This document shows positions 2,982-47,107 of a DNA stretch of 64,000 nucleotides, piece after piece. The position numbers and the translations under genes were made by a program. Source of the stretch: an uncultured Acidobacteriota bacterium. Its GTDB lineage: Bacteria > Acidobacteriota > Thermoanaerobaculia > UBA5066. Position 1 is the stretch's first letter. The number at the start of each line of letters is the position of its first letter. The notes below the pieces were generated by a model. The model was not told the DNA's origin. It made no database searches and saw only the letters and a program-made list of their open reading frames with translations. Location: contig CAWIUK010000002.1 of NCBI GenBank assembly GCA_963839295.1, positions 186,330 to 250,329 on the forward strand, given 5' to 3'.

Positions 2982-3140
2982 TATAGACAGCGACTCTGGC
3001 GCGATTTCCCGCAAGAGGGGTGCCGCATCCGAACGGTCGCCGCCGATCTCAGGACAGGACTCGCGTGGTCGCGAGCGGCCCGCGGAAGACGGGCCCGGGC
3101 CCTCCGGAGACTGCTCGAAGCCACGGAGACTCCGTCTCAC

Positions 3141-4151
3141 GTGCGGGCCCTGTCCTCCGCGGAGGCCGCGCGGATCGCCGAAGAAGCCGAGGACGTCGTC
3201 GCCCCGCTCCTTTCGCCGGACCTCGGGGCGACCGACGCCGACCTGCGCCGCTTCGAGGCCTCGGGCGCGCGCGTGATCTTCTTCGGGGACGCCGAGTACC
3301 CGGAACTTGTGCGCGAGATCACGGATCCGCCGCCGCTCCTGTTCGCGCGCGGGGCGCCCGTGCCGCCGGCGCCCGCGGTCGCGCTCGTCGGGGCCCGCCG
3401 CGCGTCGCGCGTCGCCCTCGAGACCGCGGCCGTTCTCGCGCGGGGCCTCGCCGAGGCAGGCGTCTGTGTCGTCTCGGGGTTCGCCCGCGGCGTGGACGCG
3501 GCGGCGCACCGCGCGGCGCTCGAGGCCGGCGGCCCGACGATCGCCGTCTTCGGCTGCGGCGTGGACGTCTGCTATCCCGCCGAGCAGCGCGGGCTCCTCG
3601 AGACGCTCCTCGCGACCGGGACGGCGCTCTCGGAGTTCCCCATGGGCGACGGGCCCGAGCCCTGGCACTTTCCCGTGCGCAACCGGCTCATCGCGGGCCT
3701 TTCGCGGATCGTCTGCGTCGTCGAGGCGGCCGAAAAGAGCGGCTCGCTCATCACGGCGCGGTGCGCCACGGGCTACGGACGCGACGTCGCCGCCGTGCCC
3801 GGCTCGGTCCTCGCGCCTCTGGCCGCCGGGTCGAACGCGCTCCTGAAGGACGGCGCGATCCTCGTCCGCTCGGCGGACGACCTCCTCGCGGAGCTGCCCG
3901 AGGAGGACCGCCGGCGCCTGAACCGCGCGGTGGCGGCGCGCGCGGCGGCCGCCGTTCCCGATCTCCCGCCCGACGCGGCGGCGCTCCTCGCGGTCCTCGA
4001 CCCGGACGAGCCGCGCGACGCGGACGCCCTGATTCCGGCCGCGGGACTGGACGCGGCGCGCTTCTCGGCGGCTCTCCTGCACCTCGAAATCGAGGGCCTC
4101 GCGACCGCCCTTCCGGGAGCTCTCTTCGTCCGCTCGCGCCCCCGGAGTTGA
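3141..4151 (+). CDS. dprA: DNA-processing protein DprA/Smf
   Basis: GFARGVDAAAHRAAL, WHFPVRNRLIAGL and VVEAAEKSGSLITA motifs. Conserved position directly upstream of topA. GTG start. Confidence 0.85.
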   Translation: MRALSSAEAARIAEEAEDVVAPLLSPDLGATDADLRRFEASGARVIFFGDAEYPELVREITDPPPLLFARGAPVPPAPAVALVGARRASRVALETAAVLARGLAEAGVCVVSGFARGVDAAAHRAALEAGGPTIAVFGCGVDVCYPAEQRGLLETLLATGTALSEFPMGDGPEPWHFPVRNRLIAGLSRIVCVVEAAEKSGSLITARCATGYGRDVAAVPGSVLAPLAAGSNALLKDGAILVRSADDLLAELPEEDRRRLNRAVAARAAAAVPDLPPDAAALLAVLDPDEPRDADALIPAAGLDAARFSAALLHLEIEGLATALPGALFVRSRPRS

Positions 4152-26520: not shown

Positions 26521-27078
26521 TCAGGCGATCCCGAGGATCCGCCTGCCTTCGGGCGTCATCATCTCCGCGCTCCACGGCGGGTCCCACACGAGCTGGACCT
26601 CGGCCTCCCTGACGCCCGGCACCCGCGCGACGCGGGACTGCGCGTCGGCGGCGATCGCGGGGCCCATCCCGCAGCCGGGCGCCGTCAGGGTCATCTTCAC
26701 CTCGACGCGCGTGCCGCCCTTCTCCGCGGCGAGGACGCGCAGGTCGTAGACGAGGCCGAGGTCCACGATGTTCACGGGGATCTCGGGGTCGTAGACGGTC
26801 TTGAGGGAGTCCCACAGCGAGTCCTCGCTGACGGGGCCGACGGCGGAAGCGGGCGCGTCGTCCGCGGCCCCCGCCGTGATGCCGAGGGCGTCCCCATTCT
26901 CTCCGGAGATGCGGAAGAGCCCGCCGAGTTCGGGCGCCTGCACGGTGAGCGTCCCGCCGAGCGACTGCGTCAGGAAGACGTCCGTGCCGGCCTTGAGCAT
27001 GACGGGGTCGCCCGACGGGATCCGGATGGCCGGGCAATCGCGCGAGAGCTGGTGGGCGGTGGGAACCTGCGGTGTCAT
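26521..27078 (-). CDS. sufT: SufT-like Fe-S assembly protein (C-terminal DUF59/MIP18 domain)
   Basis: From ATG 27078: VYDPEIPVNIVDLGLVY and MTLTAPGCGMG motifs. ATGA overlap with the MFS stop. Confidence 0.8.
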   Translation of the reverse strand: MTPQVPTAHQLSRDCPAIRIPSGDPVMLKAGTDVFLTQSLGGTLTVQAPELGGLFRISGENGDALGITAGAADDAPASAVGPVSEDSLWDSLKTVYDPEIPVNIVDLGLVYDLRVLAAEKGGTRVEVKMTLTAPGCGMGPAIAADAQSRVARVPGVREAEVQLVWDPPWSAEMMTPEGRRILGIA

Positions 27079-28274
27079 GGGGTGGACTCCTCCGCGCGCG
27101 GCGGCGCGTCTCCATTCTCCTTCAGGAGGCCCGCGGCGGAAAGGACGAGCGCGCCGCCCTGCAGCGCGGCCGCGGCCCAGTGCGGGGCGTCGGGGCCGAC
27201 GCGCAGGTAGAGGTTCTCTCCGGCGAACGGACCGAACACGCGGCCGAGCGAGGCCATGGACTGGTAGGCCCCGAGGATCTCGCCCTGTTCGGTCGCCGCC
27301 GTGCGGCGCGAAACGAGGGACGACAGCGTGGGCGTCGTAATCCCGATGCCGAGCGCGATGACGGCGATCGCCGCGAGGAGGCGCGGGACGGTCGTCCCGA
27401 ACCGCAGCGCGAGAAAGCCCGCGATCAGGAGGACGCAGCCGGCCATCACGAGGCGCGCCTCGCCGAAGCGCGGCGCGAGCCGGCGGACGATGCCGCCCTG
27501 GACGACGACCGAGCACACGCCGACGAAGACGAAGAACCACGCGACCGTGGACGGCCCCGTCCCGAGACGGAGCGAGAGGAACTGCGCGAACGTGGACTCG
27601 AAATTCGCGAAGGCGGTCGTCGTCACGAAGGAGAGGAGCATCAGGGCGCCGATCTCCGGGCGGCGGAATGCCTTGAGGAGCGAGCCCGTCGAGAAGAGGG
27701 GAACCGACGGCGCGACCGTTCCCGCTGGCCGCGTCTCGGGGAGGCGGAAGAAGGCCCAGAGGCACGCGGTCGCCGAGAGCGCGGCCGCGAACAGGCCGGG
27801 CGCGGATTCGCCGAGCCGAACGGAGAAGCCGCCGATCGCGGGCCCGAAGATGAAGCCGAGGCCGAACGCGATCCCGACCATCGCCATCCCGCGCGTGCGT
27901 TCGGAGGGCGCCGTCGAGTCCGCGATGACGGCTTGCGCGGTCCCGATGTTCCCGCCCGTCGCGCCGGGGAGGAGGCGGGCGACGAAGAGCATCGGGAGCG
28001 AGCGCGCGAACGCGAAGAGAAGGTAGCCGACCACCGTCCCGAGGAGCGAGAAGATGATCACGGGGCGCCGCCCGTACCGGTCCGAGAGTCGGCCGAGGAG
28101 GGGCCCGAAGATGAACTGCATCGCGGAGTAGCTCGACATCAGGAGCCCGAACGCGAGCGCGGACGGGTGGTATTTCTCCGCGTAGAGAGGCAACAGCGGG
28201 ATCACGATCCCGAAGCCGAGGAGGTCGATGAAGACCGTCAGGAAGACGATCTTCAGGATGGAGCGGTCGTTCAG
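27075..28274 (-). CDS. MFS transporter (Tet/TCR-like); only plausible start is CTG 28274
   Basis: C-terminal 399 codons of ORF 27075..33719: ILKIVFLTVFIDLLGFGIVIPLLP and GRLSDRYGRRPV (MFS motif A). No ATG/GTG/TTG lies between the erpA stop and TM1. Confidence 0.8.
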   Translation of the reverse strand: MNDRSILKIVFLTVFIDLLGFGIVIPLLPLYAEKYHPSALAFGLLMSSYSAMQFIFGPLLGRLSDRYGRRPVIIFSLLGTVVGYLLFAFARSLPMLFVARLLPGATGGNIGTAQAVIADSTAPSERTRGMAMVGIAFGLGFIFGPAIGGFSVRLGESAPGLFAAALSATACLWAFFRLPETRPAGTVAPSVPLFSTGSLLKAFRRPEIGALMLLSFVTTTAFANFESTFAQFLSLRLGTGPSTVAWFFVFVGVCSVVVQGGIVRRLAPRFGEARLVMAGCVLLIAGFLALRFGTTVPRLLAAIAVIALGIGITTPTLSSLVSRRTAATEQGEILGAYQSMASLGRVFGPFAGENLYLRVGPDAPHWAAAALQGGALVLSAAGLLKENGDAPPRAEESTP

Positions 28275-28642
28275 CTGAAGGATTTTCCGCAGCCGCAGCC
28301 GGACGTCGCGTTCGGGTTCTCCACGGCGAAGCCCGCTCCGCGCATGTCCTCGACGAAGTCCACGGTGGAGCCGTGGAGCTTGAGCGCGCTCGCCGGATCG
28401 ACGACGACCTCGATGTCCTTCACGGCGAGGACGTGGTCCGTCGGCCTCTTGTCGTCGAACGTGAAGCCGTACTGGAAGCCGGAGCATCCTCCGCCCTGGA
28501 TGAAGACGCGCAGCGGCTTGTTCGCGGCGTCGGGCATCTTCGAGGCGAATTCCTTCACCTTCGCGACGGCGCGATCCGTCACGCTGAGAACGAAGACGGA
28601 CGGGGACACGACCTGCGTGGCGGTCTCGGGAGCGCTGGACAT
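28271..28642 (-). CDS. erpA: Iron-sulfur cluster insertion protein ErpA/IscA (HesB family)
   Basis: Trimmed to ATG 28642 (GGAGGA 7 nt upstream). GGGCSGFQYGF and the C-terminal GCGCGKSFS motif. Confidence 0.9.
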   Translation of the reverse strand: MSSAPETATQVVSPSVFVLSVTDRAVAKVKEFASKMPDAANKPLRVFIQGGGCSGFQYGFTFDDKRPTDHVLAVKDIEVVVDPASALKLHGSTVDFVEDMRGAGFAVENPNATSGCGCGKSFS

Positions 28643-28976
28643 TGACTGGTCCTCCATCGGCGCGCGCGCCGCCTGTGGAATATGGCCGCGAACACCCGCG
28701 GAAGTCAAACGGGCGAGAGGGGTTGCGTATTCCCACAGCCCGTGAAAAACCCCACCATCTAGTGGCCTCTTCGTGTAAAAACACTATCCCTTGCGTTTTC
28801 CCCTTGAAATTCGATCTCAGCGGCACTACCTTGTTCGACAGACCTGACAACGACCCGGCGATCGCGAACAGTCGTCTTCCCCGGTCAGACGAAGGGCCAG
28901 AGGTGCCGCCGGGTGGCGGCAAAAAGAGGACAAACCGCTCACGTCCGAGGAAAGTGAGAGGAAGGCGTTTCCGTCC

Positions 28977-31916
<2,940 letters not shown>

Positions 31917-31958
31917 TGTGAGGCGCGGCGCGCCCGTGGTGCGAGACTGAGCGCACGC

Positions 31959-33713
31959 ATGGTGCGGCGCGCGTTCGGCGCCTTCGGCGCGGTGCAGACG
32001 TTCTTCTGGCTCGCGCGCCGGGACCGGTTCGAAGTCCTTTTCTGGTTCACGGGGGAGTCGTGGCTCTACGTCCTGCTCCTCTGGCTGAAGGACCTCGCGC
32101 TCGCGGCCGCCGCGGGCTGGATCGCGGCGAGGCTCCTGGCGCTCGTCACGGAAGCGGCCGCGCGCGAGGAGCGTGAGCCCTCTCCGCCGCTCCGGCCGCT
32201 CGCCGAGGCGGCGTGGGTCGTCCCGGCCCTCGCGCTCGGCGTCGTCCTGCGATGGGTCTTTGCGGCGTGGAACCCGCCGGGGCTCTGGGTCGACGTCGTC
32301 TACGCGGCGCGGCCGCTCTTCGGCGGCGCTCCTCCGCCGCTGTGGGGCGCCTCGCCGTTCGGGGAGAACCCGGCGAGTTCCGAGGTCGTGTCCAACCTGT
32401 ACGTCGGATTCGTGCGCGGCGTCTTCGCGCTCTTCGGGAGCGGCGAGACGGGCTTTTTCGCGATCTCCGCCCTGCCGGGCAGCCTCGCGGTCCCGGCCGC
32501 CTGGTGGCTCGCGCGAGAAGCGTCCGGCCCGCGGACCGCGGCCGTCGCGGCCGTGCTCGGCGCGCTGCTCGGGTGGCCTCTTCTCCTGTCGCGCTGGTCG
32601 TCGACGGCGGCGCTGCTCCTCGTCCTCGTCCTCGTGGGAGCCGCGGCGACGCTGCGCGCCCGTCGCACCGGAAGCCTCGCGCTCGCCGCGCTCGCCGGAG
32701 CGTGCGTCGGCCTCTCGCTCCACACCCACGCGTCCGCCGGCGCGGTCGCGGCGGGTTTCGCCGCGTTCGCTCTTCTGGAAATGCGGCGCGCCCCGTCCCG
32801 GCGGCTCGTCCTCGCGGCTGCGGCGGCCGCGGCGCTGGCGTTCGCGCCGCTCGCCTGGGCGTTCACGGCGGGCGACAGCCGCCTCGGAGGGCACCTGCGC
32901 GACGTCCACGTCGGGACGCCCGTGAAAGGCGTGGACGCGCCGCACGCCCCCGGCGTTCTCCGCCTGCCCGCGGATCTCGCCGCGAACGCGCTCGAGTACA
33001 CGGGCGTCCTTCTCTGGACGCGCGACCCGAACCTGCGTCACGCGGGGGGGCGGGGCGTCATGACGCCGCTCGTCGGCGCCGCCGCGCTCCTGGGGTTCGG
33101 CCTCGCGGCCTCGCGGCGGCGGCCCGCGGACGTTTTCCTCCTGCTCCTGGCGGGCGGAAGTCTCCTCGCGGGCATCCTGTCGAACCCCGGCGGCTCGCCG
33201 AACACGCTGCGCGTGGCGGCGCTCGCCGTCCCGGCAGCGCTCTTCGCGGCCGCCGTCCTCGACGCCGCGATCGCCGCCGCCGCCCGCGCCGGCGCGGCCT
33301 CGCGGGCCGTCCTCGTCGCGGGCCTCGCGGCGGCCCTGTTCGCCGCGGAGTCGCTGCCCGTCCTCGTGGATCTCCCCGGCGCGAGCGCACGATTCTGCGG
33401 CGCGGAGACCGACGCGGGCCGGCTCCTCGGGCGTCTCGCGGAGGCGCCCGTCGTCGAGGAGACCGGAGCGTTTCTCCACCCGGTCGTCGTCGAGGCGGTC
33501 GCGCACGGGGCGGACCGCGGCCTCCCGCTGACCTCTTTCGCGAGGAAAACGCCCGCCGGGATTCTCGCGTCGAGGCCCCCGGGCTCCTTCTGGGTGCTCG
33601 CGTCGCGCCGCGGCCTCGCGACGCTCGCGGCGGGCGGCCTCAGGTGCGGGCGCGGAATCGAGCCGGGTGGAGGCGCCGGCGTTCTCCTCGCGCGGGTGAA
33701 GCCGCGCGGTTGA
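31959..33713 (+). CDS. Polytopic membrane protein, possibly a GT-C-type glycosyltransferase
   Basis: More than 10 hydrophobic helices and a soluble C-terminal region. The family assignment is weak. Confidence 0.5.
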   Translation: MVRRAFGAFGAVQTFFWLARRDRFEVLFWFTGESWLYVLLLWLKDLALAAAAGWIAARLLALVTEAAAREEREPSPPLRPLAEAAWVVPALALGVVLRWVFAAWNPPGLWVDVVYAARPLFGGAPPPLWGASPFGENPASSEVVSNLYVGFVRGVFALFGSGETGFFAISALPGSLAVPAAWWLAREASGPRTAAVAAVLGALLGWPLLLSRWSSTAALLLVLVLVGAAATLRARRTGSLALAALAGACVGLSLHTHASAGAVAAGFAAFALLEMRRAPSRRLVLAAAAAAALAFAPLAWAFTAGDSRLGGHLRDVHVGTPVKGVDAPHAPGVLRLPADLAANALEYTGVLLWTRDPNLRHAGGRGVMTPLVGAAALLGFGLAASRRRPADVFLLLLAGGSLLAGILSNPGGSPNTLRVAALAVPAALFAAAVLDAAIAAAARAGAASRAVLVAGLAAALFAAESLPVLVDLPGASARFCGAETDAGRLLGRLAEAPVVEETGAFLHPVVVEAVAHGADRGLPLTSFARKTPAGILASRPPGSFWVLASRRGLATLAAGGLRCGRGIEPGGGAGVLLARVKPRG

Positions 33714-33719
33714 CCGCAC

Positions 33720-33762: not shown

Positions 33763-34710
33763 TCAGCGGATCGGGACGGGCGTCGGCGTCGGCGCCACGA
33801 CCCGGCCGGGCGGGCCCGGGACCACGTGCGGAGCGAGCGGCGGCTTGCCGGGCGCCGGGCAGTTCTGGGGCGCGCCCATCTCGATGACCTTCATCCCGTT
33901 CCACGTCGCGGGGCCCGGGCCGGCGTTGTTCCCGTAGTCGGACTCGTCGACGGCCTTGTTGTCGTTCACGCTCGCGCGGAACGGGTGCGGCGCGCCGGAC
34001 GTCATGTGCGCGGGGTTCGCGGCGTAGTAGGTGACGTCCACCGGGACGTTCCGGGTCTCGCCGGGGTTCATCGGCGGGTTGATCCCGACGCCCGTCCCGA
34101 AGTCGTCGGGGTTCGGGAGGTGCATGTCCTTGACGACGACGGCGGGCTGCTTGCCGGCGGGCCACGTGGCGGCGCCCTGGTTTTTCACGCCGACGGAGAA
34201 GCGGTAGACCATCTGCCCCGGCGCGCAGGTCCCCCACTTCTCGAGGCCGAAACTCGTGATCACGAGGTCCGGCTTGGCAGCGCCCGCGGCGGTCGCGGGG
34301 CACGTGAACGTGAGCGAGACGTTCTCGCCCGAGCGCGCCGAGAGGATCTCCTTCTGGTTCGAGTCCCACATCCGGAGGACGACCTCGTGGACGGTCTGCG
34401 TCGCCGGGGTCGCCGGCGAGCAGAGCGCCGAGAAGCGCACCTTCACGACGCCGACGCCCTTCGTGATCGTCTCCGGTTTCGCGACGTACGGGACGCCCGT
34501 CATCGACAGGGTCACCTGCGCGGTGTCGTGGGCGTCGAGGGTGTAGCCCATCGTCGCCTCGAGGGAGTTTCCCGCGTTCAGCGGGGTGTTCGGGAAGGCG
34601 CCGGGGGAGGCGCTCCCCGAGAGGTTGAAGTTGTTGAAGTGGTCGAAGGCGGCCGCGGGCGAGGCGAGGGCGACGCACACGGCGGCGAGGACGAGAGCGG
34701 CACGTTTCAC
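33763..34710 (-). CDS. Secreted CARDB-like domain protein
   Basis: Signal peptide MKRAALVLAAVCVALASPAAA. PDLVITSF..VGVKNQGAA..VDESDYGNN is CARDB-like. Confidence 0.65.
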   Translation of the reverse strand: MKRAALVLAAVCVALASPAAAFDHFNNFNLSGSASPGAFPNTPLNAGNSLEATMGYTLDAHDTAQVTLSMTGVPYVAKPETITKGVGVVKVRFSALCSPATPATQTVHEVVLRMWDSNQKEILSARSGENVSLTFTCPATAAGAAKPDLVITSFGLEKWGTCAPGQMVYRFSVGVKNQGAATWPAGKQPAVVVKDMHLPNPDDFGTGVGINPPMNPGETRNVPVDVTYYAANPAHMTSGAPHPFRASVNDNKAVDESDYGNNAGPGPATWNGMKVIEMGAPQNCPAPGKPPLAPHVVPGPPGRVVAPTPTPVPIR

Positions 34711-34893
34711 GGGTTCCTCCTGTCGTGGGGGAATCTAGACCGGGTACGCCCCGCCGCAAGGGCTCCGCATGGCCCGAAAGCGCCAGAAAGGGGCCGGGCG
34801 GCGTCACGGCGCGCCCGGAAGGCCTTCCGGCGCCGCCGAATGGTTCAAATGAGGGATAGACGGGCTGTGCAGCGACCTTGACATTGACGGTGG

Positions 34894-36531
34894 ATGACTC
34901 TGTCCCGGATCCCCTTCCACCGGCGGCTCGGGTTCAAGATCACCGCAACCGCGGCCGCGGCGATCCTCGTGCCCGTCGCGATCGTCGCGGCCGTGACGAT
35001 CCGCGCCCAGCACGAAGAGCTCGTCGCGCGGGCCCAGGGGAGCGCCGCGATCCTGTCCGAGACCGTCCGGAGCGCGACGCACGACTTCATGCTCAAGGAC
35101 CAGCGGGAGGACGCGTACCGGATCGTCGAGATCGTCGGGCACGAGAGCCTCCGCAAGGACAGCTCGATCGAGAGCGTGCGGATCTTCAACAAGCAGGGCG
35201 CGACGGTGTACTCGACGGACCGTTCGGAGATCGGGCGCGTCGCCGACAAGCGCGCGGACGTCTGCGCGCCGTGTCACGGCGGGGCGGGCGCGCCCGTCAC
35301 GAACCCGGACCCGGAGACGCGCAGCCGGATCACGACGTCGGGCGGCCACCGGATCCTCTCGTTCGTGACGCCGATCTACAACGAAGCCGACTGCGCCTCC
35401 TCCGGGTGCCACGCCTCCCCGAAGGACCAGCGCGTCCTCGGCCTCCTCGACGTCGCGCTCTCCCTCAAGGAGGTCGACGACCGCCGCGCCGCCGCGACCT
35501 GGCGGATCGTGGGCCTCTCGCTCCTCGCGCTCGTCGTCCTCACGGCGCTCGTGACCGCGATCGTCCGCGTGCTCGTGCTCCGCCCCGTCTCGGACATGCT
35601 CGCGGCGACCCGGGACCTCGCCCACGGCGGCACGCCCGGACCCCTCAGGGTCCGCTCGCACGACGAGCTCGGAATGCTCGCGGGCTCGTTCAACGAGATG
35701 AGCGCCTACCTGAGGTACGCGCGCGACCGCCTCGAGGCGGCGGCGGGCGACCTCGAGCGCCAGGTCGAGGAGCGGACGGCGGCCCTCCGGCAGGCGCAGG
35801 ACGCGCTCGCCCAGAGCGAGAAACTCGCCTCGCTCGGGACGCTCTCCGCCTCGATCGCGCACGAGATCAACAACCCGCTCGCCGGGATCCTCACGTTCGC
35901 GCGCCTCATGTCGCGCACGCTCGAGTCCGGCGAGGTCGACGACGCCGCGCGCGCCGCGTGCCTGAAGAACCTCGGCCTCATCCAGCGCGAGACCGAGCGC
36001 TGCACGCGGATCGTGCGGAGCCTCCTCGACTTCGCGCGCGCACGGCCGATCGAGCTCAACGACGTGGACGCGACGTCCGCGCTCGACGAGGCGGTCTCCC
36101 TGACGCAGCACAAGCTCCAGCTGCAGCAGGTTGTCGTGGCGAAGAACGTCGACGGTCCGGCCGTCGTCCGGGGGGACTACGGCCAGCTCCGCCAGGTCTT
36201 CGTGAACCTGATCCTGAACGCGTGCGACGCGATGCCGAAGGGCGGGACGCTCTCCGTCACGTCCCGGAAGGTCGACTCCGGACGCGCCGTCGAGATCGAG
36301 TTCGCGGACACGGGCACGGGCATCGCGCCCGAGCACCTCTCGCGCATTTTCGACCCCTTCTTCACGACGAAAGAGATGGGAACGGGCCTCGGGCTCTCCG
36401 TCGTCTACGGCGTCGTCGAGAAGCACGGCGGGTCCATGAAGGCGCAGAGCCGCCTCGGCGAAGGGACCACGATGACGGTGCGGCTGCCGCTCGCCGGGGA
36501 GGCGGCGGCGCCGGCGGGCGCCGCCGCGTGA
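34894..36531 (+). CDS. Sensor histidine kinase (HAMP-HisKA-HATPase) with two c-type heme motifs in the periplasmic loop
   Basis: TM1 around residues 15-37 and TM2 around 202-228. CAPCH (residues 124-128) and CASSGCH (167-173) lie between them. H-box SIAHEINNPLAG, N-box NLILNACDAM, G-boxes DTGTGI and GTGLGLS. Confidence 0.9.
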   Translation: MTLSRIPFHRRLGFKITATAAAAILVPVAIVAAVTIRAQHEELVARAQGSAAILSETVRSATHDFMLKDQREDAYRIVEIVGHESLRKDSSIESVRIFNKQGATVYSTDRSEIGRVADKRADVCAPCHGGAGAPVTNPDPETRSRITTSGGHRILSFVTPIYNEADCASSGCHASPKDQRVLGLLDVALSLKEVDDRRAAATWRIVGLSLLALVVLTALVTAIVRVLVLRPVSDMLAATRDLAHGGTPGPLRVRSHDELGMLAGSFNEMSAYLRYARDRLEAAAGDLERQVEERTAALRQAQDALAQSEKLASLGTLSASIAHEINNPLAGILTFARLMSRTLESGEVDDAARAACLKNLGLIQRETERCTRIVRSLLDFARARPIELNDVDATSALDEAVSLTQHKLQLQQVVVAKNVDGPAVVRGDYGQLRQVFVNLILNACDAMPKGGTLSVTSRKVDSGRAVEIEFADTGTGIAPEHLSRIFDPFFTTKEMGTGLGLSVVYGVVEKHGGSMKAQSRLGEGTTMTVRLPLAGEAAAPAGAAA

Positions 36532-37071
36532 ACGAGGTCCTCCTCCTGTGGATCGGGCAGAAGGAACCCGCCCCGGACCTCCTCGACGGCGTCCACCGGA
36601 GCGTCGCGCGCGAGTTCGAGGTGCCCGTGCGCCTGCGCGTCTCGCCGGACCGGCCCGGGGACGCCTTCGACCCGCGCCGGGGGCAGCACTCCTCCACGCG
36701 GATCCTCGCGTGGCTGAAGGACCGGCACGACGGGGCGCGCCGGGTCCTCGGCGTCACGGACGCCGACCTGTTCATCCCGATCCTGACCTTCGTGTTCGGC
36801 GAGGCGCAGCTCGGCGGCCGCGCGGCCGTCGTCTCGACGGCCCGCCTCGGCGACACGCCGCTGATCCCCGGCGAGGCGGCGCGCATCGCCCTGCGCCTCC
36901 AGAAGGAAGCCGTTCACGAGCTCGGACACACCTTCGGCCTCCTGCACTGCGCCGACGCGCGCTGCGCGATGGCGCGCTCGCCCAGCCTGAGGCACGTCGA
37001 CGCGAAGTCCCCCGCCCTCTGCCGCACCTGCCGCGCGCGAACCCGCGAACTCTCGGAAAACGGAGACGTCC

Positions 37072-38466
<1,395 letters not shown>

Positions 38467-38492
38467 GAATCACAACCCCCCGTTGAGAAAGC

Positions 38493-38517
38493 GAACGCGC
38501 GGGCCTCCCGCGCGTTC
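38493..38517 (+). promoter_or_regulatory. 11-bp perfect inverted repeat: terminator-like hairpin and/or enhancer (UAS) site
   Basis: GAACGCGCGGG-CCT-CCCGCGCGTTC, 27 nt after the regulator stop. Its centre is about 83 bp upstream of the -24 GG. Confidence 0.45.
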
Positions 38518-38586
38518 CTCCGCTTTTCCGGGGCAATCTGCTGTGGCCGCACGTGTTGCGGGCCGTGCGGGCCGCCGCGCGAACGG

Positions 38587-38602
38587 TGGCCCGGTCCGTG
38601 CA
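38587..38602 (+). promoter_or_regulatory. Sigma-54 (-24/-12) promoter
   Basis: TGGCCCGGTCCGTGCA compared with consensus TGGCACG-N4-TTGCW. The GG and GC dinucleotides have the correct spacing. Located directly downstream of a sigma-54 activator gene. Confidence 0.55.
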
Positions 38603-38616
38603 ACCCCTTCGTCGCC

Positions 38617-38874
38617 ATGTTGAACGACACCACGACCGCCTGCCCCTGGCTGAAGCAAGTGGTGATGCTCTATTGCGACGCCTGCCCGACCAAGAAGATG
38701 GTCCCGAAAGACCAGCTCGTGTCGCAGGGTCCGTGCCTCACGGGTTCCTTTGCGGAGTGCGCCATGTACCGCGAGATGGTCAAGAGGATCGAGGCAGGCG
38801 CCGCCGCCGCTGATGTTGCCGTTGACACGGAGGCGAGCCGCAAGGCCGCTTCCGGGAGGGAGGTCCCGTCATGA
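38617..38874 (+). CDS. Small cytoplasmic Cys-rich protein of unknown function
   Basis: 85 aa. Cys at positions 9, 20, 23, 40 and 48 (CPW..YCDAC..PC..EC). No signal peptide. First gene after the -24/-12 element, with no SD. Confidence 0.6.
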   Translation: MLNDTTTACPWLKQVVMLYCDACPTKKMVPKDQLVSQGPCLTGSFAECAMYREMVKRIEAGAAAADVAVDTEASRKAASGREVPS

Positions 38875-38967: not shown

Positions 38968-39873
38968 ATGAACCTGAACCGCCGCAACCTGTTCCAGATC
39001 GCCGGCGCCGCGGGCGCGGCCACGATCGCGGGCCGCGCCCTCTCGTCGGCGACGACGCGCAGCGCCGCCAAAGACGCCGTCGGCGTCCTCGTGGACACGA
39101 CGCGCTGCGTCGGCTGCCGCGCCTGCGAAGCCGCGTGCTCCGAGGCGAATGGCCTCGCCGGGCCCGAGAAGCCGGGCGACGACACCGTGTTCGCGTCGCG
39201 CCGCCGGACCTCCCCCACGAGCTTCACGGTCGTGAACAAGTCGGCCGAGAAGAGCCCGAGCGGCGAGGACCGTTACGCGAAGACGCAGTGCATGCACTGC
39301 GTGACCCCCGCGTGCGCGTCCGGCTGCGTCGTCAAGGCGCTCGAGAAGACGGCCGCCGGGCCGGTCGTGTACCACGAGGACCGTTGCCTCGGCTGCCGCT
39401 ACTGCATGATCGCGTGCCCCTTCGGCGTTCCGAAGTACGAGTACACGAAGGCGGCCCCCCTCGTGCGCAAATGCACGTTCTGCGCGGCGCGCCAGGAAAA
39501 GGGCCTGCCGCCCGCCTGCACCGACGCGTGCCCCTCGGGCGCGCTCACGTTCGGAAAGCGGGCCGACCTCCTCGAGGAGGCCAGGACCCGCATTTACCAG
39601 AACCCCGGCAAGTACGTCCACGAGATCTACGGAGAGGACGAAGCCGGCGGCACGAGCTGGCTGTACATCTCGGACGTCTCCGCGGCGAGCCTCAACCTCC
39701 CGCAGGACATCGTGAAGAAACCCTACCCCGAGATGGCGGACGGCGCGCTCTCGGCCGTCCCGTTCATCGTGACCTTGTGGCCGCCCCTCCTCATGGGCCT
39801 CTACACCTTCAGCAAGCGCCGCGACGACGTCGCCGGACGCGAAAACGGACAGAAGGGAGCCGGCCATGAGTGA
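38968..39873 (+). CDS. Tat-exported 4x[4Fe-4S] ferredoxin-type subunit (HybA/DsrO/NrfC-like) with C-terminal TM anchor
   Basis: Trimmed to ATG 38968 (AAGGAGAG upstream). NRRNLFQIAG twin-arginine signal. CVGCRACEAAC, CMHCVTPACASGC, CLGCRYCMIACP and CTFC..CTDACP clusters. C-terminal AVPFIVTLWPPLLMGLYTF. Confidence 0.88.
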   Translation: MNLNRRNLFQIAGAAGAATIAGRALSSATTRSAAKDAVGVLVDTTRCVGCRACEAACSEANGLAGPEKPGDDTVFASRRRTSPTSFTVVNKSAEKSPSGEDRYAKTQCMHCVTPACASGCVVKALEKTAAGPVVYHEDRCLGCRYCMIACPFGVPKYEYTKAAPLVRKCTFCAARQEKGLPPACTDACPSGALTFGKRADLLEEARTRIYQNPGKYVHEIYGEDEAGGTSWLYISDVSAASLNLPQDIVKKPYPEMADGALSAVPFIVTLWPPLLMGLYTFSKRRDDVAGRENGQKGAGHE

Positions 39874-41089
39874 GACCTTCGACCGCGTCGCGGTTTCGAC
39901 CCTCGTTCGCGAAAAGGTCCTCCTCGGGATGGAACCGAAGGCATACGCGAAGAGCCTGCTGACGAAGACGAACGCGATCTTCGCGGCGATCCTCCTCGTC
40001 GGCCTCCCGACGATCGCCTACCGGTTCTGGAAGGGCATGGGCGCGGTGAGCAACCTCTCCCAGACGAACCCGTGGGGCCTCTGGGTCGCGTTCGACGTCG
40101 TCTGCGGCGTCGCGCTGGCCGCCGGCGGCTACACGGTGGCCGCGGCCGTCTACCTGTTCGGTCAGAAGCAGTTCGCCCCGGTCCTGAGGCCCGCGATCCT
40201 CACCGGCTTCCTCGGCTACCTCTTCGTCCTCGTCGGCCTCGTCGTCGACCTCGGCCAGCCCTGGCGGCTCCCCTACCAGTTCTTCCTCACGCCCGGGACG
40301 ACCGCCGTCATGTACGAGGTCGGCTGGTGCGTGTTCCTGTACCTGATGGTCCTCGCCCTCGAGTTCCTCCCGGCGGCGCTCGAGTGGCTCGGGATGACGA
40401 AGGTCCGGCGTTTCATGAGCGCGATCTCGATCGCGATCATCGTCCTCGGCGTCACGCTCTCGACCCTCCACCAGTCCTCGCTCGGCGCCTTCTTCCTCAT
40501 GTCGCCCGGCAAGCTCCACCCCCTGTGGTACTCGCCGTTCCTCCCGATCTTCTTCTTCGTGTCGTCGATCGCGGCGGGCATCGGCATGGTCATCTTCGAG
40601 AGCTCGGTCTCGCACCGGGCGTTCCAGGACCAGCTCGACCCCGAAGCGCACGTCGACATGGACGCCCTCCAGCTCGGGCTCGCCAAGGGCGGCGCGGTCG
40701 TCCTCTTCGCCTACTTCTTCGTCCGCCTCCAGGGCCTCGTCGCGAGCGGCCGGTGGGACCTCCTCCTGACCGGCTGGGGCGCGTGGTACGCCCTCGAGAT
40801 GCTCGGCTTCGTCCTGCTGCCGTCGCTCCTCTTCGCCTTCGCGGTGAGGACGCAGAGCGCGCGGCTCGCGCGCGCCGCCGGCGTCATGACGGTCCTCGGC
40901 GTCGTCCTCAACCGCTTCAACGTCGCGCTGATCGCGTTCAACTGGAACGTGCCCGACCGGTACGTTCCCGCGCTCGGCGAGATCGTCATCTCGGTCACGA
41001 TCGTCACGCTCGGCGTCCTCGTGTTCCGCTGGATCGTCAACCGCATGCCGGTGCTCCACGAGCATCCGGAATGGCGCGGCGTCCACTGA
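39866..41089 (+). CDS. NrfD/PsrC-family (HybB/DsrP-like) quinone-interacting membrane subunit
   Basis: 407 aa, about 10 TM helices. NPWGLWVAFDVVCGVALAAGGY motif. 8-nt overlap with the upstream gene. Confidence 0.88.
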   Translation: MSETFDRVAVSTLVREKVLLGMEPKAYAKSLLTKTNAIFAAILLVGLPTIAYRFWKGMGAVSNLSQTNPWGLWVAFDVVCGVALAAGGYTVAAAVYLFGQKQFAPVLRPAILTGFLGYLFVLVGLVVDLGQPWRLPYQFFLTPGTTAVMYEVGWCVFLYLMVLALEFLPAALEWLGMTKVRRFMSAISIAIIVLGVTLSTLHQSSLGAFFLMSPGKLHPLWYSPFLPIFFFVSSIAAGIGMVIFESSVSHRAFQDQLDPEAHVDMDALQLGLAKGGAVVLFAYFFVRLQGLVASGRWDLLLTGWGAWYALEMLGFVLLPSLLFAFAVRTQSARLARAAGVMTVLGVVLNRFNVALIAFNWNVPDRYVPALGEIVISVTIVTLGVLVFRWIVNRMPVLHEHPEWRGVH

Positions 41090-41108: not shown

Positions 41109-41774
41109 ATGCACGCCAACGACGTCCTCAGCCCTCACGCCACCAAGGCCATCGAGTACCTGCTCGCGGTCTCGTACCTCCTGCTCTTCATCCCCTTCTG
41201 GCGCTTCGTGAACGGCGCGTCGGTCGCGCAGGCCTTCGCGACGGGCTGGTTCCAGGTCCCGGAAAACGTCCACCTGCACCGCGGCCACTCCTGGGCGAAG
41301 ACGTTCGGCGGCGCGGTCGCGGTCGGCCTCGACGACTTCGCCCACAAGCTGATCGGCCCGCTCGACGCCGTCCAGCTCCCCGCGGTCGGCACGTCGCTCC
41401 GCCAGGGCCAGAAGGCCTTCACGGTCGTCGCCGACGGCAGGCCCTTCGACGTCGTCTCGCCCGTCGACGGGAACGTCGTCGCGGTGAACGAGGTCGTCCG
41501 CGCGCACCCCGCCGACGCGGTCCGCGACCCCTACGGCACGGGCTGGCTCCTGAAGGTCGAGCCCCGCTGGCTGACCGCGAACATCAAGAACCTCGTCTCG
41601 GGCGATGCCGCCCGCCGCTTCCTCGACGCGGCCGCCGAAGTCCTCGCGGGCCGTATGAGCCCCGAGCTCGGCGTCGTCCTCCAGGACGGCGGCACGCCGG
41701 TCCACGGGATCGCCCGCGAGATCGACCCGGAGCACTGGGACTCGCTCGTCCGCACGTCCCTCCGGGGCGAGTGA
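41109..41774 (+). CDS. Membrane-anchored GcvH-fold (barrel-sandwich) protein lacking the lipoyl-lysine
   Basis: N-terminal TM AIEYLLAVSYLLLFIPFWRFV. GHSWAK..VGLDDFAHKLIGP..LPAVG..VVSPVDGNVVAVN..DPYGTGWLLKV resembles GcvH. Confidence 0.7.
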   Translation: MHANDVLSPHATKAIEYLLAVSYLLLFIPFWRFVNGASVAQAFATGWFQVPENVHLHRGHSWAKTFGGAVAVGLDDFAHKLIGPLDAVQLPAVGTSLRQGQKAFTVVADGRPFDVVSPVDGNVVAVNEVVRAHPADAVRDPYGTGWLLKVEPRWLTANIKNLVSGDAARRFLDAAAEVLAGRMSPELGVVLQDGGTPVHGIAREIDPEHWDSLVRTSLRGE

Positions 41775-41784
41775 GGAGGACGCC

Positions 41785-42132
41785 ATGAACACCCTCCTCC
41801 GCTTCCTCGCGGCGACGCTCCTCCTCGCCCTTTCCACGACGCTCGACGCGGGGGCGCTGCCGAACCTCCCGAAGGACCTGGCGCTCCCGCAGGGCGACGG
41901 CAGCCCGGGCGTCGTCACCTTCCGCCACGACGCGCACGTCGACGCCTCGCGGCCCGACTGCACGACCTGCCACCCGAAACTCTTCCCCATCGTCAAACGC
42001 ACCGCCTCTTCGGCCGCCCCCGCCGCGATCCGCCACGCCGACATGGAAAAGGGCAAGAGCTGCGGCTCCTGCCACGACGGCAAGAGCGCCCACGGCCTCG
42101 ACGACTGCGGGACGTGCCACCAGGCCAAGTGA
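41785..42132 (+). CDS. Periplasmic triheme c-type cytochrome (c7/c3-like)
   Basis: Signal peptide plus CTTCH, CGSCH and CGTCH in a 115-aa protein. Confidence 0.85.
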   Translation: MNTLLRFLAATLLLALSTTLDAGALPNLPKDLALPQGDGSPGVVTFRHDAHVDASRPDCTTCHPKLFPIVKRTASSAAPAAIRHADMEKGKSCGSCHDGKSAHGLDDCGTCHQAK

Positions 42133-42141
42133 GGTGACGTC

Positions 42142-42840
42142 ATGACGCCTCTCGAATTCCTCCAGCTCGCCGGCATCTTCCTCGCGGGTCTCGTCGTCCG
42201 GATCCTCGCCTTCACCCTCGTGATCGCGGTCTGCACGCTCCCGATCATCGCCGCCTGGGCGCTCTGGCGAGCGTGGCAGATGATGCGCGACCGGCGCATC
42301 GGCCTCGTCGACATCGCGGGGCTCGAGTTCGCCGAGGCGCACCATTACGCGCCCGGCCACACGTGGCTCGCGCGGAAGAGCCGCGGCACGGTCCGCGTCG
42401 GCCTCGACGAGATCGCGGGCCGGCTCCTCCATGCGCCGACGAGCGTCTCGCTTCCGCGGCCGGGGACCGTCCTCGCCGCCGGCCTCCCCGCCGCCACCGT
42501 GAACTGCGGCGGCCGCTCGGCCACGCTCTCCGCCCCGGTGTCGGGCACCGTCGTCGCGATCAACCCCAGGGTCCTGCGGGACCCCGCGCTCCTCGAGGAG
42601 TCGCGCTACCGCAACGGCTGGCTCTTCTCGATGAAACCCGCGACGGCTTCGTTCCTCACGCTCCCGACCGGCGCCGCCGCGCGCTCCTGGTTCCAGGACG
42701 AGACGGCGCGCTTCTCGCACGCGCTCGAGACCGAGCTCGGCCTTCTTGCGGCCGACGGCGGCGAGCTCGTCGTCGAGGCGCCCGCGCTGCTGTCCGAGGA
42801 GAAGTGGCAGCGTCTCGTCTCGGAGTTCCTGAAGGGCTGA
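42142..42840 (+). CDS. Membrane-anchored GcvH-fold protein lacking the lipoyl-lysine (paralog 2)
   Basis: Hydrophobic N-terminus (residues about 6-43), then RAWQMMRDRR. GHTWLA..VGLDEIAGRLL..LPRPG..LSAPVSGTVVAIN..YRNGWLFSMKP. Confidence 0.7.
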   Translation: MTPLEFLQLAGIFLAGLVVRILAFTLVIAVCTLPIIAAWALWRAWQMMRDRRIGLVDIAGLEFAEAHHYAPGHTWLARKSRGTVRVGLDEIAGRLLHAPTSVSLPRPGTVLAAGLPAATVNCGGRSATLSAPVSGTVVAINPRVLRDPALLEESRYRNGWLFSMKPATASFLTLPTGAAARSWFQDETARFSHALETELGLLAADGGELVVEAPALLSEEKWQRLVSEFLKG

Positions 42841-47021: not shown

Positions 47022-47048
47022 GCGACACCGACCCCGGGTGATTCCCGA

Positions 47049-47088
47049 GGCCCCCCTCCGAAACGACGGAGGGGGGCCTTTTTCTTTT
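47049..47088 (+). terminator. Rho-independent terminator/attenuator in the 5' leader of the aromatic biosynthesis gene
   Basis: GGCCCCCCTCCG-AAACGA-CGGAGGGGGGCC followed by TTTTTCTTTT. There is no upstream plus-strand gene to terminate. Confidence 0.7.
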
Positions 47089-47107
47089 GTCCCCAAGGAG
47101 GCTTCCC

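What the first reader, a model, noticed from the sequence alone, without database searches (positions are those of the whole stretch)
34894..36531. Histidine kinase whose periplasmic loop carries CXXCH and CX4CH heme-c motifs
Between the two TM helices (about residues 38-200) the kinase contains CAPCH (nt 35263-35277) and CASSGCH (nt 35392-35412). CXXCH is the covalent heme-c attachment motif, and CX4CH variants occur in cytochrome c3-type proteins.

A covalently bound heme in the sensing domain would make this a direct periplasmic redox or ligand sensor. It sits in the same gene string as a sigma-54 activator and a cytochrome/FeS/NrfD operon. Heme-c sensor domains exist but are rare and poorly characterised, and this two-motif arrangement is unusual.
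Basis: partly seen in the sequence, partly recalled or inferred. Interest (0 to 1): 0.6.

Follow-up and report, generated by a model that had tools for sequence, protein, structure and literature searches.

The report
Two-heme periplasmic redox sensor kinase
This histidine kinase very probably carries two covalently bound hemes in its periplasmic sensor domain; it belongs to a large family that has been annotated but never biochemically studied, and here it sits next to a sigma-54 regulator and a membrane electron-transfer operon that it probably controls.

Summary
CAPCH (nt 35263-35277) and CASSGCH (nt 35392-35412) lie in the loop between two transmembrane helices of a HAMP/HisKA/HATPase kinase, and chance does not explain them (3 of 200,000 shuffles).

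The heme-c reading is well supported.
- The loop is a single Cache/PAS-like domain homologous to the Geobacter heme-c sensors GSU0582 and GSU0935.
- Its CX4CH aligns with their heme-attachment CXXCH.
- Both Cys-Cys-His triplets and Met66 are nearly invariant in 272 relatives from more than ten phyla.

The arrangement is not unusual. CXXCH, about 38 residues, then CX4CHxH is the signature of a large family. [quoted passage not shown] No member has been characterised.

The kinase is co-transcribed with an archaemetzincin and a sigma-54 response regulator. A conserved -24/-12 promoter then drives an HmcB/HmcC-like FeS/NrfD operon with a triheme c7 cytochrome.

A Desulfuromonadaceae homologue lies beside a sigma-54 response regulator arranged like G. 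sulfurreducens BccR, the regulator that switches on low-potential respiration. The likely role is therefore periplasmic redox sensing.

One local oddity: the family's conserved His175 is Ser here.

Verdict: a new member of a known kind, of moderate interest.

The parts
34894..36531 (+). Sensor histidine kinase, 545 aa: TM1, di-heme-motif sCache-like periplasmic domain, TM2, HAMP, HisKA, HATPase_c
   Evidence: Translation. Pfam: HAMP 228-274, HisKA 314-383, HATPase_c 427-534. GC3 0.97.
34936..35001 (+). TM1 / signal anchor (about aa 15-36), preceded by a K/R-rich cytoplasmic N-terminus
   Evidence: Hydropathy and positive-inside count. The AF2 model has a continuous helix over aa 12-67.
35002..35505 (+). 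Periplasmic single Cache/PAS-like sensor domain (aa 37-204)
   Evidence: AF2 model with pLDDT 92. Foldseek matches WalK extracellular Cache, GSU0935 (3b42), KinD and CitA. Sub-threshold PF21563 match, 24.6 bits on the sensor alone against a cut-off of 27; 23/28 family members match PF21563 at E<0.01.
35089..35091 (+). Met66, candidate distal heme ligand at the end of the helix that continues from TM1
   Evidence: Met in 149/150 representatives. A Met lies about 58 residues upstream of site 1 in 266/267 relatives. It aligns weakly with the MM pair in the N-terminal helix of 3b42/3b47.
35263..35277 (+). Heme-c motif 1, CAPCH (C124, C127, H128), in the beta2-beta3 connector
   Evidence: Invariant in 150/150. 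It is absent from the single-heme structures 3b42/3b47 at this position.
35392..35412 (+). Heme-c motif 2, CASSGCH (C167, C172, H173), in a short helix and loop before the last beta-strand
   Evidence: It aligns with the heme-binding CQSCH of GSU0582 and GSU0935. Conservation: C167 147/149, C172 148/149, H173 146/146. The CX4CH spacing occurs in 258/267 relatives.
35416..35418 (+). Ser175, at the position where the family has a conserved His (CX4CHxH)
   Evidence: His in 136/149 and in 248/267. Ser or Ala occurs only in the window's own clade, L001-L004 and L007, while L005, L006 and P0003 keep His.
35860..35862 (+). Phospho-acceptor His323 (H-box AHEINNPL)
   Evidence: Sequence and HisKA match.
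36528..37109 (+). Archaemetzincin-family (Peptidase_M54) gene. Its GTG start overlaps the kinase stop codon (GTGA).
   Evidence: Pfam PF07998 E=1.4e-18. NCBIfam archmetzin 147 bits against a cut-off of 145. Start codon. Present between kinase and regulator in 27/80 related loci.
37072..38466 (+). Sigma-54-dependent response regulator (REC, AAA+ sigma-54 interaction domain, HTH_8). It has the same domain architecture as BccR. It overlaps the M54 gene by 38 nt.
   Evidence: Pfam. 43% identity to the sigma-54 response regulator next to the Desulfuromonadaceae homologue.
38478..38535 (+). GC-rich hairpin followed by a U-rich tract after the regulator gene; a likely intrinsic terminator that ends the kinase-M54-regulator unit
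   Evidence: Folding energy -33.9 kcal/mol, z = -4.1. Conserved in the close clade, with one compensatory change in L005. The simple terminator scan did not call it.
38587..38602 (+). Sigma-54 type -24/-12 promoter element, TGGCCCGGTCCGTGCA
   Evidence: The TGGC-N7-(T/G)TGC block aligns in 18 of 19 acidobacterial loci while the flanks diverge. The match in the window alone is not significant: 12 matches found against 27 expected.
38617..38874 (+). Small Cys-rich protein, first gene of the sigma-54 operon; function unknown
   Evidence: GC3 frame. Conserved in 19/80 loci. No Pfam or NCBIfam match.
38968..39873 (+). Tat-exported 4Fe-4S protein, HmcB/HybA-like
   Evidence: RRNLF twin-arginine signal. 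Fer4_11. NCBIfam HmcB 356 bits against a cut-off of 420.
39866..41089 (+). NrfD-family integral membrane subunit, HmcC/HybB-like
   Evidence: PF03916. NCBIfam HmcC 514 bits against a cut-off of 550.
41109..41774 (+). Membrane-anchored GcvH-like protein without the lipoyl lysine
   Evidence: PF01597. Sequence.
41785..42132 (+). Secreted triheme cytochrome c7
   Evidence: Three CXXCH motifs and a signal peptide. TIGR04257, 67.7 bits against a cut-off of 40.
42142..42840 (+). Second membrane-anchored GcvH-like protein
   Evidence: PF01597.

Best explanation
The gene encodes a transmembrane histidine kinase whose periplasmic domain is a single Cache/PAS-like fold. The domain is matured with two covalently bound c-type hemes.

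Heme 2 attaches at CASSGCH, with H173 as proximal ligand. This is the site that holds the heme in the Geobacter sensors GSU0582 and GSU0935. Heme 1 attaches at CAPCH, with H128 as proximal ligand, in the beta2-beta3 connector. In ordinary Cache domains that connector lines the ligand pocket.

Met66 sits at the end of the helix that runs straight out of TM1 and is the likely distal ligand of one heme. In most of the family, the His two residues after H173 is the likely distal ligand of the other. Here that residue is Ser, so one heme may be five-coordinate.

Proposed working: reduction or oxidation of the hemes changes axial ligation and spin state, as shown for GSU0582 and GSU0935. The electron partners would be periplasmic carriers such as the c7 cytochrome encoded downstream. 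The ligation change moves the TM1-linked helix. The signal passes through HAMP to the kinase core, which phosphorylates the co-transcribed sigma-54 response regulator. That regulator activates the conserved -24/-12 promoter in front of the HmcB/HmcC-like FeS-NrfD, cytochrome c7 and GcvH-like operon. This operon encodes a quinone-linked periplasmic electron-transfer module. The circuit matches the architecture of the Geobacter BccR system, which induces cbcBA as redox potential falls.

Shown here: motifs, topology, fold, homology, conservation, operon structure and promoter conservation.

Inferred: heme occupancy of both sites, the axial ligands, redox as the signal, and the regulator-to-promoter link.
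For: - Homology to proven heme-c sensors. PF21563 matches at E=3.2e-5 on the sensor alone, and 23/28 diverse family members match, best E=2.5e-9. Against the PDB, CASSGCH aligns on the CQSCH of 3b47 and 3b42. Foldseek returns 3b42 at E=7.9e-5 with 22% identity, the highest sequence identity in the hit list, next to WalK, KinD and CitA Cache domains.
- Conservation. C124, C127 and H128 are 150/150; C167 is 147/149, C172 148/149, H173 146/146; Met66 is 149/150; His175 is 136/149. In 272 relatives, 267 have both motifs and 258 of those have CX4CH. The His directly after the second Cys is kept in both motifs. That is the heme-c hallmark and is not expected for a zinc or Fe-S site.
- CX4CH is a proven heme-c site in cytochrome c3 (PMC10454114).
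- Topology is periplasmic. A Sec-exported triheme c7 in the neighbouring operon shows that the organism matures c-type cytochromes.
- Circuit. The kinase, M54 gene and regulator have overlapping start and stop codons. A terminator-like hairpin follows. The TGGC-N7-TTGC element is conserved in 18/19 loci.
- Synteny. 57/80 related loci carry FeS plus NrfD, and 36/80 carry a full sigma-54 response regulator.
- Link to the Geobacter arrangement. A Desulfuromonadaceae locus has a 34%-identical di-heme kinase next to a 43%-identical sigma-54 response regulator. That regulator is divergently transcribed from a REC/FeS/membrane/c7/CbcD-like operon. This is the layout described for bccR/cbcBA, where BccR is needed for induction below about -0.21 V (10.1101/2021.04.15.440034).
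- The literature lists GSU0599, adjacent to bccR by locus tag, as a two-component protein with two heme motifs (PMC8396549, PMC3831638).
Against: - No di-heme member has ever been purified, so occupancy of either site, and of site 1 in particular, is unproven.
- The Pfam match is below the gathering score (24.6 bits against 27).
- The alignment of Met66 with the distal-Met region of 3b42/3b47 is statistically weak (domain E-values 11 and 120).
- I could not read model coordinates, so the proposed ligand geometry is untested.
- CAPCH has Pro at X2, which is uncommon in this family. A, G, V and L are the usual residues there.
- Ser175 removes the family's putative second distal ligand.
- The BccR analogy rests on synteny. 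The Geobacter kinase itself has not been tested genetically, and the CbcBA paper does not mention it.
- In 41/80 loci the partner regulators are REC-GcvH-like proteins rather than sigma-54 activators, so the output differs across the family.
Confidence: 0.62

Rival explanations
1. The domain binds heme c but works as a small-ligand (NO, CO, O2 or sulfide) sensor rather than a redox-potential sensor. In this protein Ser175 leaves one heme five-coordinate with an open distal face.
For: The 2026 preprint on single-heme sCache_heme domains reports NO-sensor-like properties for members fused to signalling modules (PMC12889525). Its spectral table also includes GSU0582 and GSU0935. The window's clade has lost the conserved His175.
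Against: The family keeps Met66 and, in more than 90% of members, His175, which points to six-coordinate hemes. The conserved neighbours are respiratory electron-transfer modules (HmcBC-like, CbcBA-like, c7) and not NO-detoxification genes. BccR-dependent induction in Geobacter follows redox potential (10.1101/2021.04.15.440034).
Confidence: 0.2
2. The hemes are mainly electron-transfer cofactors. The kinase, like its short paralogue CbcD, is a physical subunit of the membrane complex, and it reports electron flux through the complex rather than bulk periplasmic potential.
For: [quoted passage not shown] Short forms without a kinase core (sensor, TM2, HAMP; about 280 aa) are encoded inside the FeS/NrfD/c7 operons in L081 and L083.
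Against: In the window the kinase is in a separate transcription unit, upstream of a terminator-like hairpin. No interaction data exist. This is a refinement of the main explanation more than an alternative to it.
Confidence: 0.12
3. The four Cys and two His do not bind heme. Instead they form a metal (Zn or Fe-S) site or a periplasmic disulfide redox switch.
For: Four conserved cysteines in an exported domain could in principle form disulfides or bind a metal. One JGI annotation of a family member reads 'Zn finger protein HypA/HybF'.
Against: The His directly after the second Cys is invariant in both motifs. Site 2 aligns with a heme-binding CXXCH seen in crystal structures. The Met66 and His175 conservation fits axial ligands. 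Geobacter annotation and the literature treat the motifs as heme sites.
Confidence: 0.04

Closest known systems
GSU0582 / GSU0935 periplasmic heme-c sensor domains of Geobacter sulfurreducens chemoreceptors (PDB 3B47, 3B42; Pfam PF21563 Mcp40H-20_sensor; 'sCache_heme' in PMC12889525)
   Same: A periplasmic domain between two TM helices followed by HAMP. A single Cache/PAS-like fold. The heme-attachment motif lies in the short helix before the last beta-strand. A Met sits in the N-terminal helix.
   Different: Those domains have one heme on a canonical CXXCH and feed chemotaxis receptors. Here the equivalent site is CX4CH, a second CXXCH lies about 38 residues upstream, and the output is a histidine kinase. 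The Pfam score is below the gathering threshold.
Geobacter GSU0599 (kinase) and GSU0591/CbcD (HAMP-only), and Anaeromyxobacter Adeh_2011 / Adeh_3383: sensors with two heme-c motifs, recognised from sequence only
   Same: Two motifs with the CX2-4CH signature, HAMP after TM2, and neighbourhood of a sigma-54 regulator and cytochrome/FeS/membrane operons (PMC3831638, PMC8396549, PMC7894505). The Anaeromyxobacter soli locus L056 has the same kinase, M54, sigma-54 regulator, FeS, NrfD, GcvH order.
   Different: The window protein is from a Thermoanaerobaculia (Acidobacteriota) genome. It has Ser instead of the conserved His175. Its locus has HmcBC-like genes and c7 but no adjacent cbcBA. I did not have the GSU or Adeh sequences themselves. 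The link goes through Geobacteraceae and Desulfuromonadaceae MAG homologues and the published descriptions.
BccR-cbcBA regulatory system of G. sulfurreducens (10.1101/2021.04.15.440034)
   Same: A REC/AAA+/HTH sigma-54 response regulator next to the operon of a quinone-linked cytochrome complex that has a sigma-54 promoter.
   Different: The regulated genes here are HmcB/HmcC-like plus c7 rather than CbcB/CbcA. The role of the neighbouring kinase is not addressed in that paper.
Tetraheme cytochrome c3 (Desulfovibrio)
   Same: It uses CX4CH as a genuine heme-c attachment motif, twice per molecule (PMC10454114).
   Different: The fold and function are unrelated. No cytochrome c3 Pfam match was found in the kinase.

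Membership tests
sCache_heme / PF21563 Mcp40H-20_sensor (GSU0582/GSU0935 type) | Extracytoplasmic domain flanked by two TM helices | tested here: met
   Hydropathy, positive-inside rule, and HAMP after TM2
sCache_heme / PF21563 Mcp40H-20_sensor (GSU0582/GSU0935 type) | Single Cache/PAS-like fold | tested here: met
   AF2 model with pLDDT 92. Foldseek matches WalK Cache, 3b42, KinD and CitA.
sCache_heme / PF21563 Mcp40H-20_sensor (GSU0582/GSU0935 type) | Profile match above Pfam's gathering score | tested here: not met
   21.3 bits (whole protein) and 24.6 bits (sensor alone) against a cut-off of 27. 23/28 family members match at E<0.01, so the group is a divergent relative.
sCache_heme / PF21563 Mcp40H-20_sensor (GSU0582/GSU0935 type) | Canonical CXXCH in the helix before the last beta-strand (99% conserved per PMC12889525) | tested here: not met
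   The aligned site is CX4CH (CASSGCH). 258/267 relatives also have CX4CH.
sCache_heme / PF21563 Mcp40H-20_sensor (GSU0582/GSU0935 type) | Covalently bound heme c | not testable with these tools
   Needs expression, heme staining and mass spectrometry
Two-heme-motif HAMP sensors (GSU0599 / CbcD-GSU0591 / Adeh_2011 type) | Two heme-c motifs (CX2-4CH) in one periplasmic sensor domain | tested here: met
   CAPCH and CASSGCH. Family-wide pattern.
Two-heme-motif HAMP sensors (GSU0599 / CbcD-GSU0591 / Adeh_2011 type) | Sequence homology to Geobacteraceae/Desulfuromonadales members | tested here: met
   37% identity to the 'cytochrome C [Geobacteraceae]' protein P0246. 34% identity over the full length, E=4e-104, to the Desulfuromonadaceae kinase.
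Two-heme-motif HAMP sensors (GSU0599 / CbcD-GSU0591 / Adeh_2011 type) | Neighbourhood of a sigma-54 response regulator and a cytochrome/FeS/membrane operon | tested here: met
Two-heme-motif HAMP sensors (GSU0599 / CbcD-GSU0591 / Adeh_2011 type) | Direct comparison with the GSU0599, GSU0591 or Adeh_2011 sequences themselves | not tested
The link rests on MAG homologues and published descriptions.
HisKA-type two-component sensor kinase | HAMP, H-box His and HATPase_c | tested here: met
   Pfam E-values 2.9e-10, 2.7e-13 and 6.6e-27. H323 lies in AHEINNPL.
Cytochrome c3 (class III) | Cytochrom_CIII profile or fold | tested here: not met
   No match in the kinase. The fold is Cache-like.

The most novel reading that the evidence does not exclude
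The di-heme Cache kinases (CXXCH...CX4CHxH) are the unidentified periplasmic redox-potential sensors that sit upstream of BccR-type sigma-54 regulators. In Ignavibacteriota they sit upstream of REC-GcvH-like regulators instead. On this reading they form a module shared by more than ten phyla that switches on low-potential quinone-linked electron-transfer complexes (CbcBA, HmcBC-like). Two hemes with different axial ligation would set a potential window. The window's His175-to-Ser clade would be a natural variant with an open-coordination heme and an altered set-point or ligand sensitivity.
Probability: 0.3. Interest if true: 0.65.

Novelty: new member of a known kind. Interest (0 to 1): 0.42.

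Why it matters
How metal-reducing and other anaerobic bacteria sense redox potential and choose among respiratory modules is an open question. The Geobacter work identified the regulator BccR but not its sensor.

This locus and its relatives point to a specific candidate that can be tested: a kinase with two covalently bound periplasmic hemes. The family spans Acidobacteriota, Ignavibacteriota, Zixibacteria, Myxococcota, Desulfuromonadota and other phyla.

Characterising one member would give the first structure and redox chemistry of a di-heme Cache sensor. It would also test whether CX4CH at the ancestral heme site and the extra CXXCH create a two-centre redox switch.

For this window alone, the result is mostly a confident functional annotation, not a new kind of system.

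Tried and rejected
- Direct sequence search of the sensor against the PDB gave only weak matches (E=0.08 to 3b47). The top hit, an isomerase at E=0.0077, was judged spurious. The profile search improved this only slightly.
- The first word-indexed homologue search returned only 7 proteins. The exhaustive profile search was needed to see the family.
- The ORFs 33826-34881 and 36548-37075 from the mechanical ORF list are Arg-rich off-frame artefacts of the 72% GC genome. GC3 analysis showed the real genes are 33763-34710 (-) and 36528-37109 (+).
- A sigma-54 consensus search in the window alone is uninformative: 12 matches against 27 expected. Only cross-species alignment made the promoter credible.
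- The simple terminator scan did not call the hairpin after the regulator gene. Folding it did show a stable hairpin.
- I could not obtain model coordinates, so the distances from Met66 and residue 175 to each motif were not measured.
- I could not fetch G. sulfurreducens or A. dehalogenans sequences.
- A cytochrome c3 relationship was rejected.
- A possible conserved linkage to the PDT/DAHP-synthase/chorismate-mutase fusion gene was seen only in the window and the Melioribacter-type loci. I left it as a probable coincidence.
Full report
**1. The observation**

The ORF at 34894-36531 (+) translates to a 545-aa protein. Codon-position GC (GC3 0.97) marks it as a real gene in this 72% GC window.

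CAPCH is residues 124-128 (nt 35263-35277). CASSGCH is residues 167-173 (nt 35392-35412). Both are exactly as reported.

Pfam finds HAMP (228-274), HisKA (314-383) and HATPase_c (427-534). Hydropathy gives two membrane segments, at about 12-40 and 198-237. The N-terminus carries four K/R and no acidic residue, and HAMP follows the second helix. Residues about 37-204 therefore face the periplasm.

Chance does not explain the two motifs. Of 200,000 shuffles of the protein, 712 had at least one CX2CH or CX4CH motif and 3 had two. In all six frames of the window, only two other open frames carry any such motif.

**2. What the domain is**

The sensor gives a sub-threshold match to Pfam PF21563 (Mcp40H-20_sensor), the family built on the heme-c sensor domains of Geobacter chemoreceptors. 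The score is 24.6 bits on the isolated domain against a cut-off of 27. Of 28 maximally diverse relatives, 23 match the same family, with best E=2.5e-9.

Against PDB sequences, ILSFVTPIYNEADCASSGCH aligns with VLSFIVPLANEVRCQSCH of 3B47 and with the equivalent stretch of 3B42. The CX4CH therefore sits exactly where those crystal structures carry covalent heme on CXXCH.

An AlphaFold2 model built on 150 homologues is confident (pLDDT 92, pTM 0.83). It has the order helix-helix-beta2-connector-beta2-short helix-beta of a single Cache/PAS-like domain. Confidence dips only around the two motifs.

Foldseek returns the WalK extracellular Cache domain, GSU0935 (3b42, 22% identity, the highest sequence identity in the hit list), KinD, CitA and DctB. 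A 2026 preprint reclassifies the GSU0582/GSU0935/Tll0287 domains as 'sCache_heme' and also uses WalK as the structural comparator. It describes one strictly conserved CXXCH and does not mention two-heme or CX4CH forms (PMC12889525).

**3. Conservation**

An exhaustive profile search of 1.84 billion cluster representatives found 2,752 proteins at E<=1e-3 and 435 at E<=1e-30.

In an alignment of 150 sequences, most of them 25-42% identical to the query:

| Residue | Conserved in |
|---|---|
| C124, C127, H128 | 150/150 |
| C167 | 147/149 |
| C172 | 148/149 |
| H173 | 146/146 |
| Met66 | 149/150 |
| His at position 175 | 136/149 |

Arg96, Arg145, Asn163, Gly102 and Asp186 are also nearly fixed.

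Over 272 relatives, 267 have both motifs. The second motif is CX4CH in 258, CX3CH in 4 and CX2CH in 5. The residue two after its His is His in 248. All five CX2CH variants lack that His.

His directly after the second Cys is invariant in both motifs, which is the heme-c signature rather than a zinc or Fe-S signature. CX4CH is a proven heme site in cytochrome c3 (PMC10454114).

Met66 lies at the end of the helix that continues from TM1. It aligns, with weak statistics, with the Met-Met pair in the N-terminal helix of 3b42 and 3b47.

The window's protein has Ser at position 175. Its closest relatives have Ser or Ala (L001-L004, L007), while sister genomes keep His (L005, L006, P0003). This is a recent, clade-specific loss of a probable axial ligand.

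**4. It is not an unusual arrangement**

Pokkuluri et al. [quoted passage not shown] 2006)' (PMC3831638).

[quoted passage not shown] A profile search with names returned about 280-aa relatives labelled 'cytochrome C [Geobacteraceae bacterium]' and 'HAMP domain-containing protein [Geobacteraceae bacterium]'. The family therefore has two forms: kinases, and short forms made of sensor, TM2 and HAMP only.

Only two papers in the searchable library mention GSU0599 at all. I found no biochemical or structural work on any two-heme member.

**5. Organism and spread**

The nearest genomes are Thermoanaerobaculia (Acidobacteriota) MAGs, with 81-91% identity over the sensor.

In that scan 275 stretches encoded a relative. 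Among the best 80 loci are:
- Acidobacteriota
- Ignavibacteria and Melioribacter
- Rhodothermales
- Zixibacteria
- KSB1
- Hydrogenedentota
- Gemmatimonadota
- Tectomicrobia
- Thermodesulfobacteriota
- Anaeromyxobacter
- Chromatiales

**6. Gene context in the window**

The kinase stop overlaps the GTG start (GTGA) of an archaemetzincin-family gene at 36528-37109 (Peptidase_M54; NCBIfam 147 bits against a cut-off of 145). That gene overlaps by 38 nt a REC/AAA+/HTH_8 sigma-54 response regulator at 37072-38466.

A strong GC-rich hairpin followed by a U-rich tract comes next (-33.9 kcal/mol, z = -4.1). It shows one compensatory change in a relative.

At 38587-38602 lies TGGCCCGGTCCGTGCA. On its own this match is not significant. 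When 19 acidobacterial loci are aligned, however, a TGGC-N7-(T/G)TGC block is kept in 18 while the flanks diverge. That supports a sigma-54 promoter.

The promoter precedes these genes:

| Coordinates | Product | Evidence |
|---|---|---|
| 38617-38874 | Small Cys-rich protein | (no family match) |
| 38968-39873 | Tat-exported FeS protein, closest to HmcB | 356 bits against 420 |
| 39866-41089 | NrfD-type membrane protein, closest to HmcC | 514 bits against 550 |
| 41109-41774 | Membrane-anchored GcvH-like protein | PF01597 |
| 41785-42132 | Secreted triheme cytochrome c7 | TIGR04257, 67.7 bits against 40 |
| 42142-42840 | Second GcvH-like protein | PF01597 |

**7. Context elsewhere**

Of the 80 related loci:

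| Feature | Loci |
|---|---|
| Kinase core | 78 |
| Full sigma-54 response regulator | 36 |
| Receiver-domain hit only | 41 |
| FeS plus NrfD | 57 |
| GcvH-like genes | 56 |
| M54 gene | 27 |

In Melioribacter the order is FeS, NrfD, multiheme cytochrome, kinase, two REC-GcvH-like fusion proteins, and then an 800-aa multiheme cytochrome fused to a b-type cytochrome. CbcAB-like genes also lie upstream of the kinase in several acidobacterial loci.

In a Desulfuromonadaceae MAG (L083), a 530-aa kinase with CGICH...CSTGPCHFH is 34% identical to ours over the full length (E=4e-104). It lies beside a sigma-54 response regulator that is 43% identical to ours. That regulator is divergently transcribed from an operon encoding REC, FeS, a 450-aa membrane protein, a c7-like cytochrome and a CbcD-like short sensor.

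This is the layout published for G. sulfurreducens bccR (GSU0598) and the cbcBA operon. There, BccR is required for induction as potential falls and for respiration below about -0.21 V (10.1101/2021.04.15.440034). That paper does not mention the neighbouring kinase.

**8. Mechanism**

The best-supported reading is a periplasmic two-heme Cache sensor. Redox-linked changes in heme ligation are passed through the TM1-linked helix and HAMP to the kinase. The kinase then phosphorylates the sigma-54 regulator, which activates the HmcBC-like/c7 operon.

Shown: motifs, topology, fold, homology, conservation, transcription-unit structure and promoter conservation.

Inferred: heme occupancy, axial ligands (Met66; His175 in most of the family), redox as the signal, and the kinase-regulator-promoter chain.

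The rivals are:
- a gas or small-ligand sensor, which Ser175 makes more plausible in this clade;
- a flux-reporting subunit of the membrane complex;
- much less likely, a non-heme metal or disulfide site.

**9. Verdict**

The claim of unusualness is not.

This is a new acidobacterial member of a family that is recognised from sequence but has not been characterised. Interest is moderate. It rests on the family's breadth, its conserved link to low-potential respiratory modules, and its standing as a candidate for the unidentified sensor upstream of BccR-type regulators.

Noticed in passing
window 41109-41774 and 42142-42840; L067 9877-10695 and 10720-11862: GcvH-like (PF01597) domains that lack the lipoyl lysine accompany the di-heme kinase in 56/80 loci. 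In Acidobacteriota they are membrane-anchored proteins. In Melioribacter and Ignavibacteria they are the output domain of receiver (REC) proteins. I know of no described role for a GcvH fold in a response regulator.
   Followed up: partly
window 36528-37109: An archaemetzincin-family (Peptidase_M54) gene is translationally coupled between the kinase and the sigma-54 regulator. The same position is occupied in 27/80 related loci, including Anaeromyxobacter. NCBIfam also gives a weaker match to 'non-proteolytic archaemetzincin-like protein' of Myxococcota.
   Followed up: partly
window 38587-38602 and 38530-38560: A conserved sigma-54 -24/-12 element lies upstream of the FeS/NrfD operon. GCAA...TTGC-type palindromes lie further upstream and could be the activator's binding sites. 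They recur as GTAAGTG...CACTTAC in more distant acidobacterial loci.
   Followed up: partly
window 38617-38874: A small Cys-rich protein (CPWLK...CDACP...C...C) with no Pfam or NCBIfam family is the first gene of the sigma-54 operon. It is conserved in 19/80 loci.
   Followed up: no
window 38968-41089: The FeS and NrfD subunits score just under the NCBIfam equivalog cut-offs for HmcB and HmcC of the Desulfovibrio Hmc complex. There is no HmcA, HmcE or HmcF. A triheme c7 takes the cytochrome position instead.
   Followed up: partly
L081 504-2279; L009, L011-L013, L023-L025 at about 600-3500; L067 12103-14505: CbcA/CbcB-like genes (a multiheme c cytochrome plus a Ni_hydr_CYTB b-type cytochrome) lie near the di-heme sensor in Geobacteraceae, several Acidobacteriota and Melioribacter, where they are fused into one 800-aa protein. 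The window itself lacks them.
   Followed up: partly
window 27075-33719 (-), 33826-34881 (+), 36548-37075 (+): Long open frames, one of them 2,214 aa, are artefacts of the 72% GC content. They run antisense or off-frame to real genes: class II ribonucleotide reductase at 28977-31916, a PMT_2 glycosyltransferase, a secreted 315-aa protein on the minus strand, and the M54 gene.
   Followed up: yes
window 47042-48997; L067 2466-4514: A fused prephenate dehydratase / DAHP synthase / chorismate mutase gene lies within a few kb of the sensor locus, both in the window and in Melioribacter-type loci. The gene is not seen in the other loci, many of which end before that distance, so this is probably a coincidence.
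   Followed up: partly
window 33763-34710 (-): A divergently transcribed 315-aa secreted protein with no Pfam family. It was found in only one related locus (L007, 65% identity).
   Followed up: no
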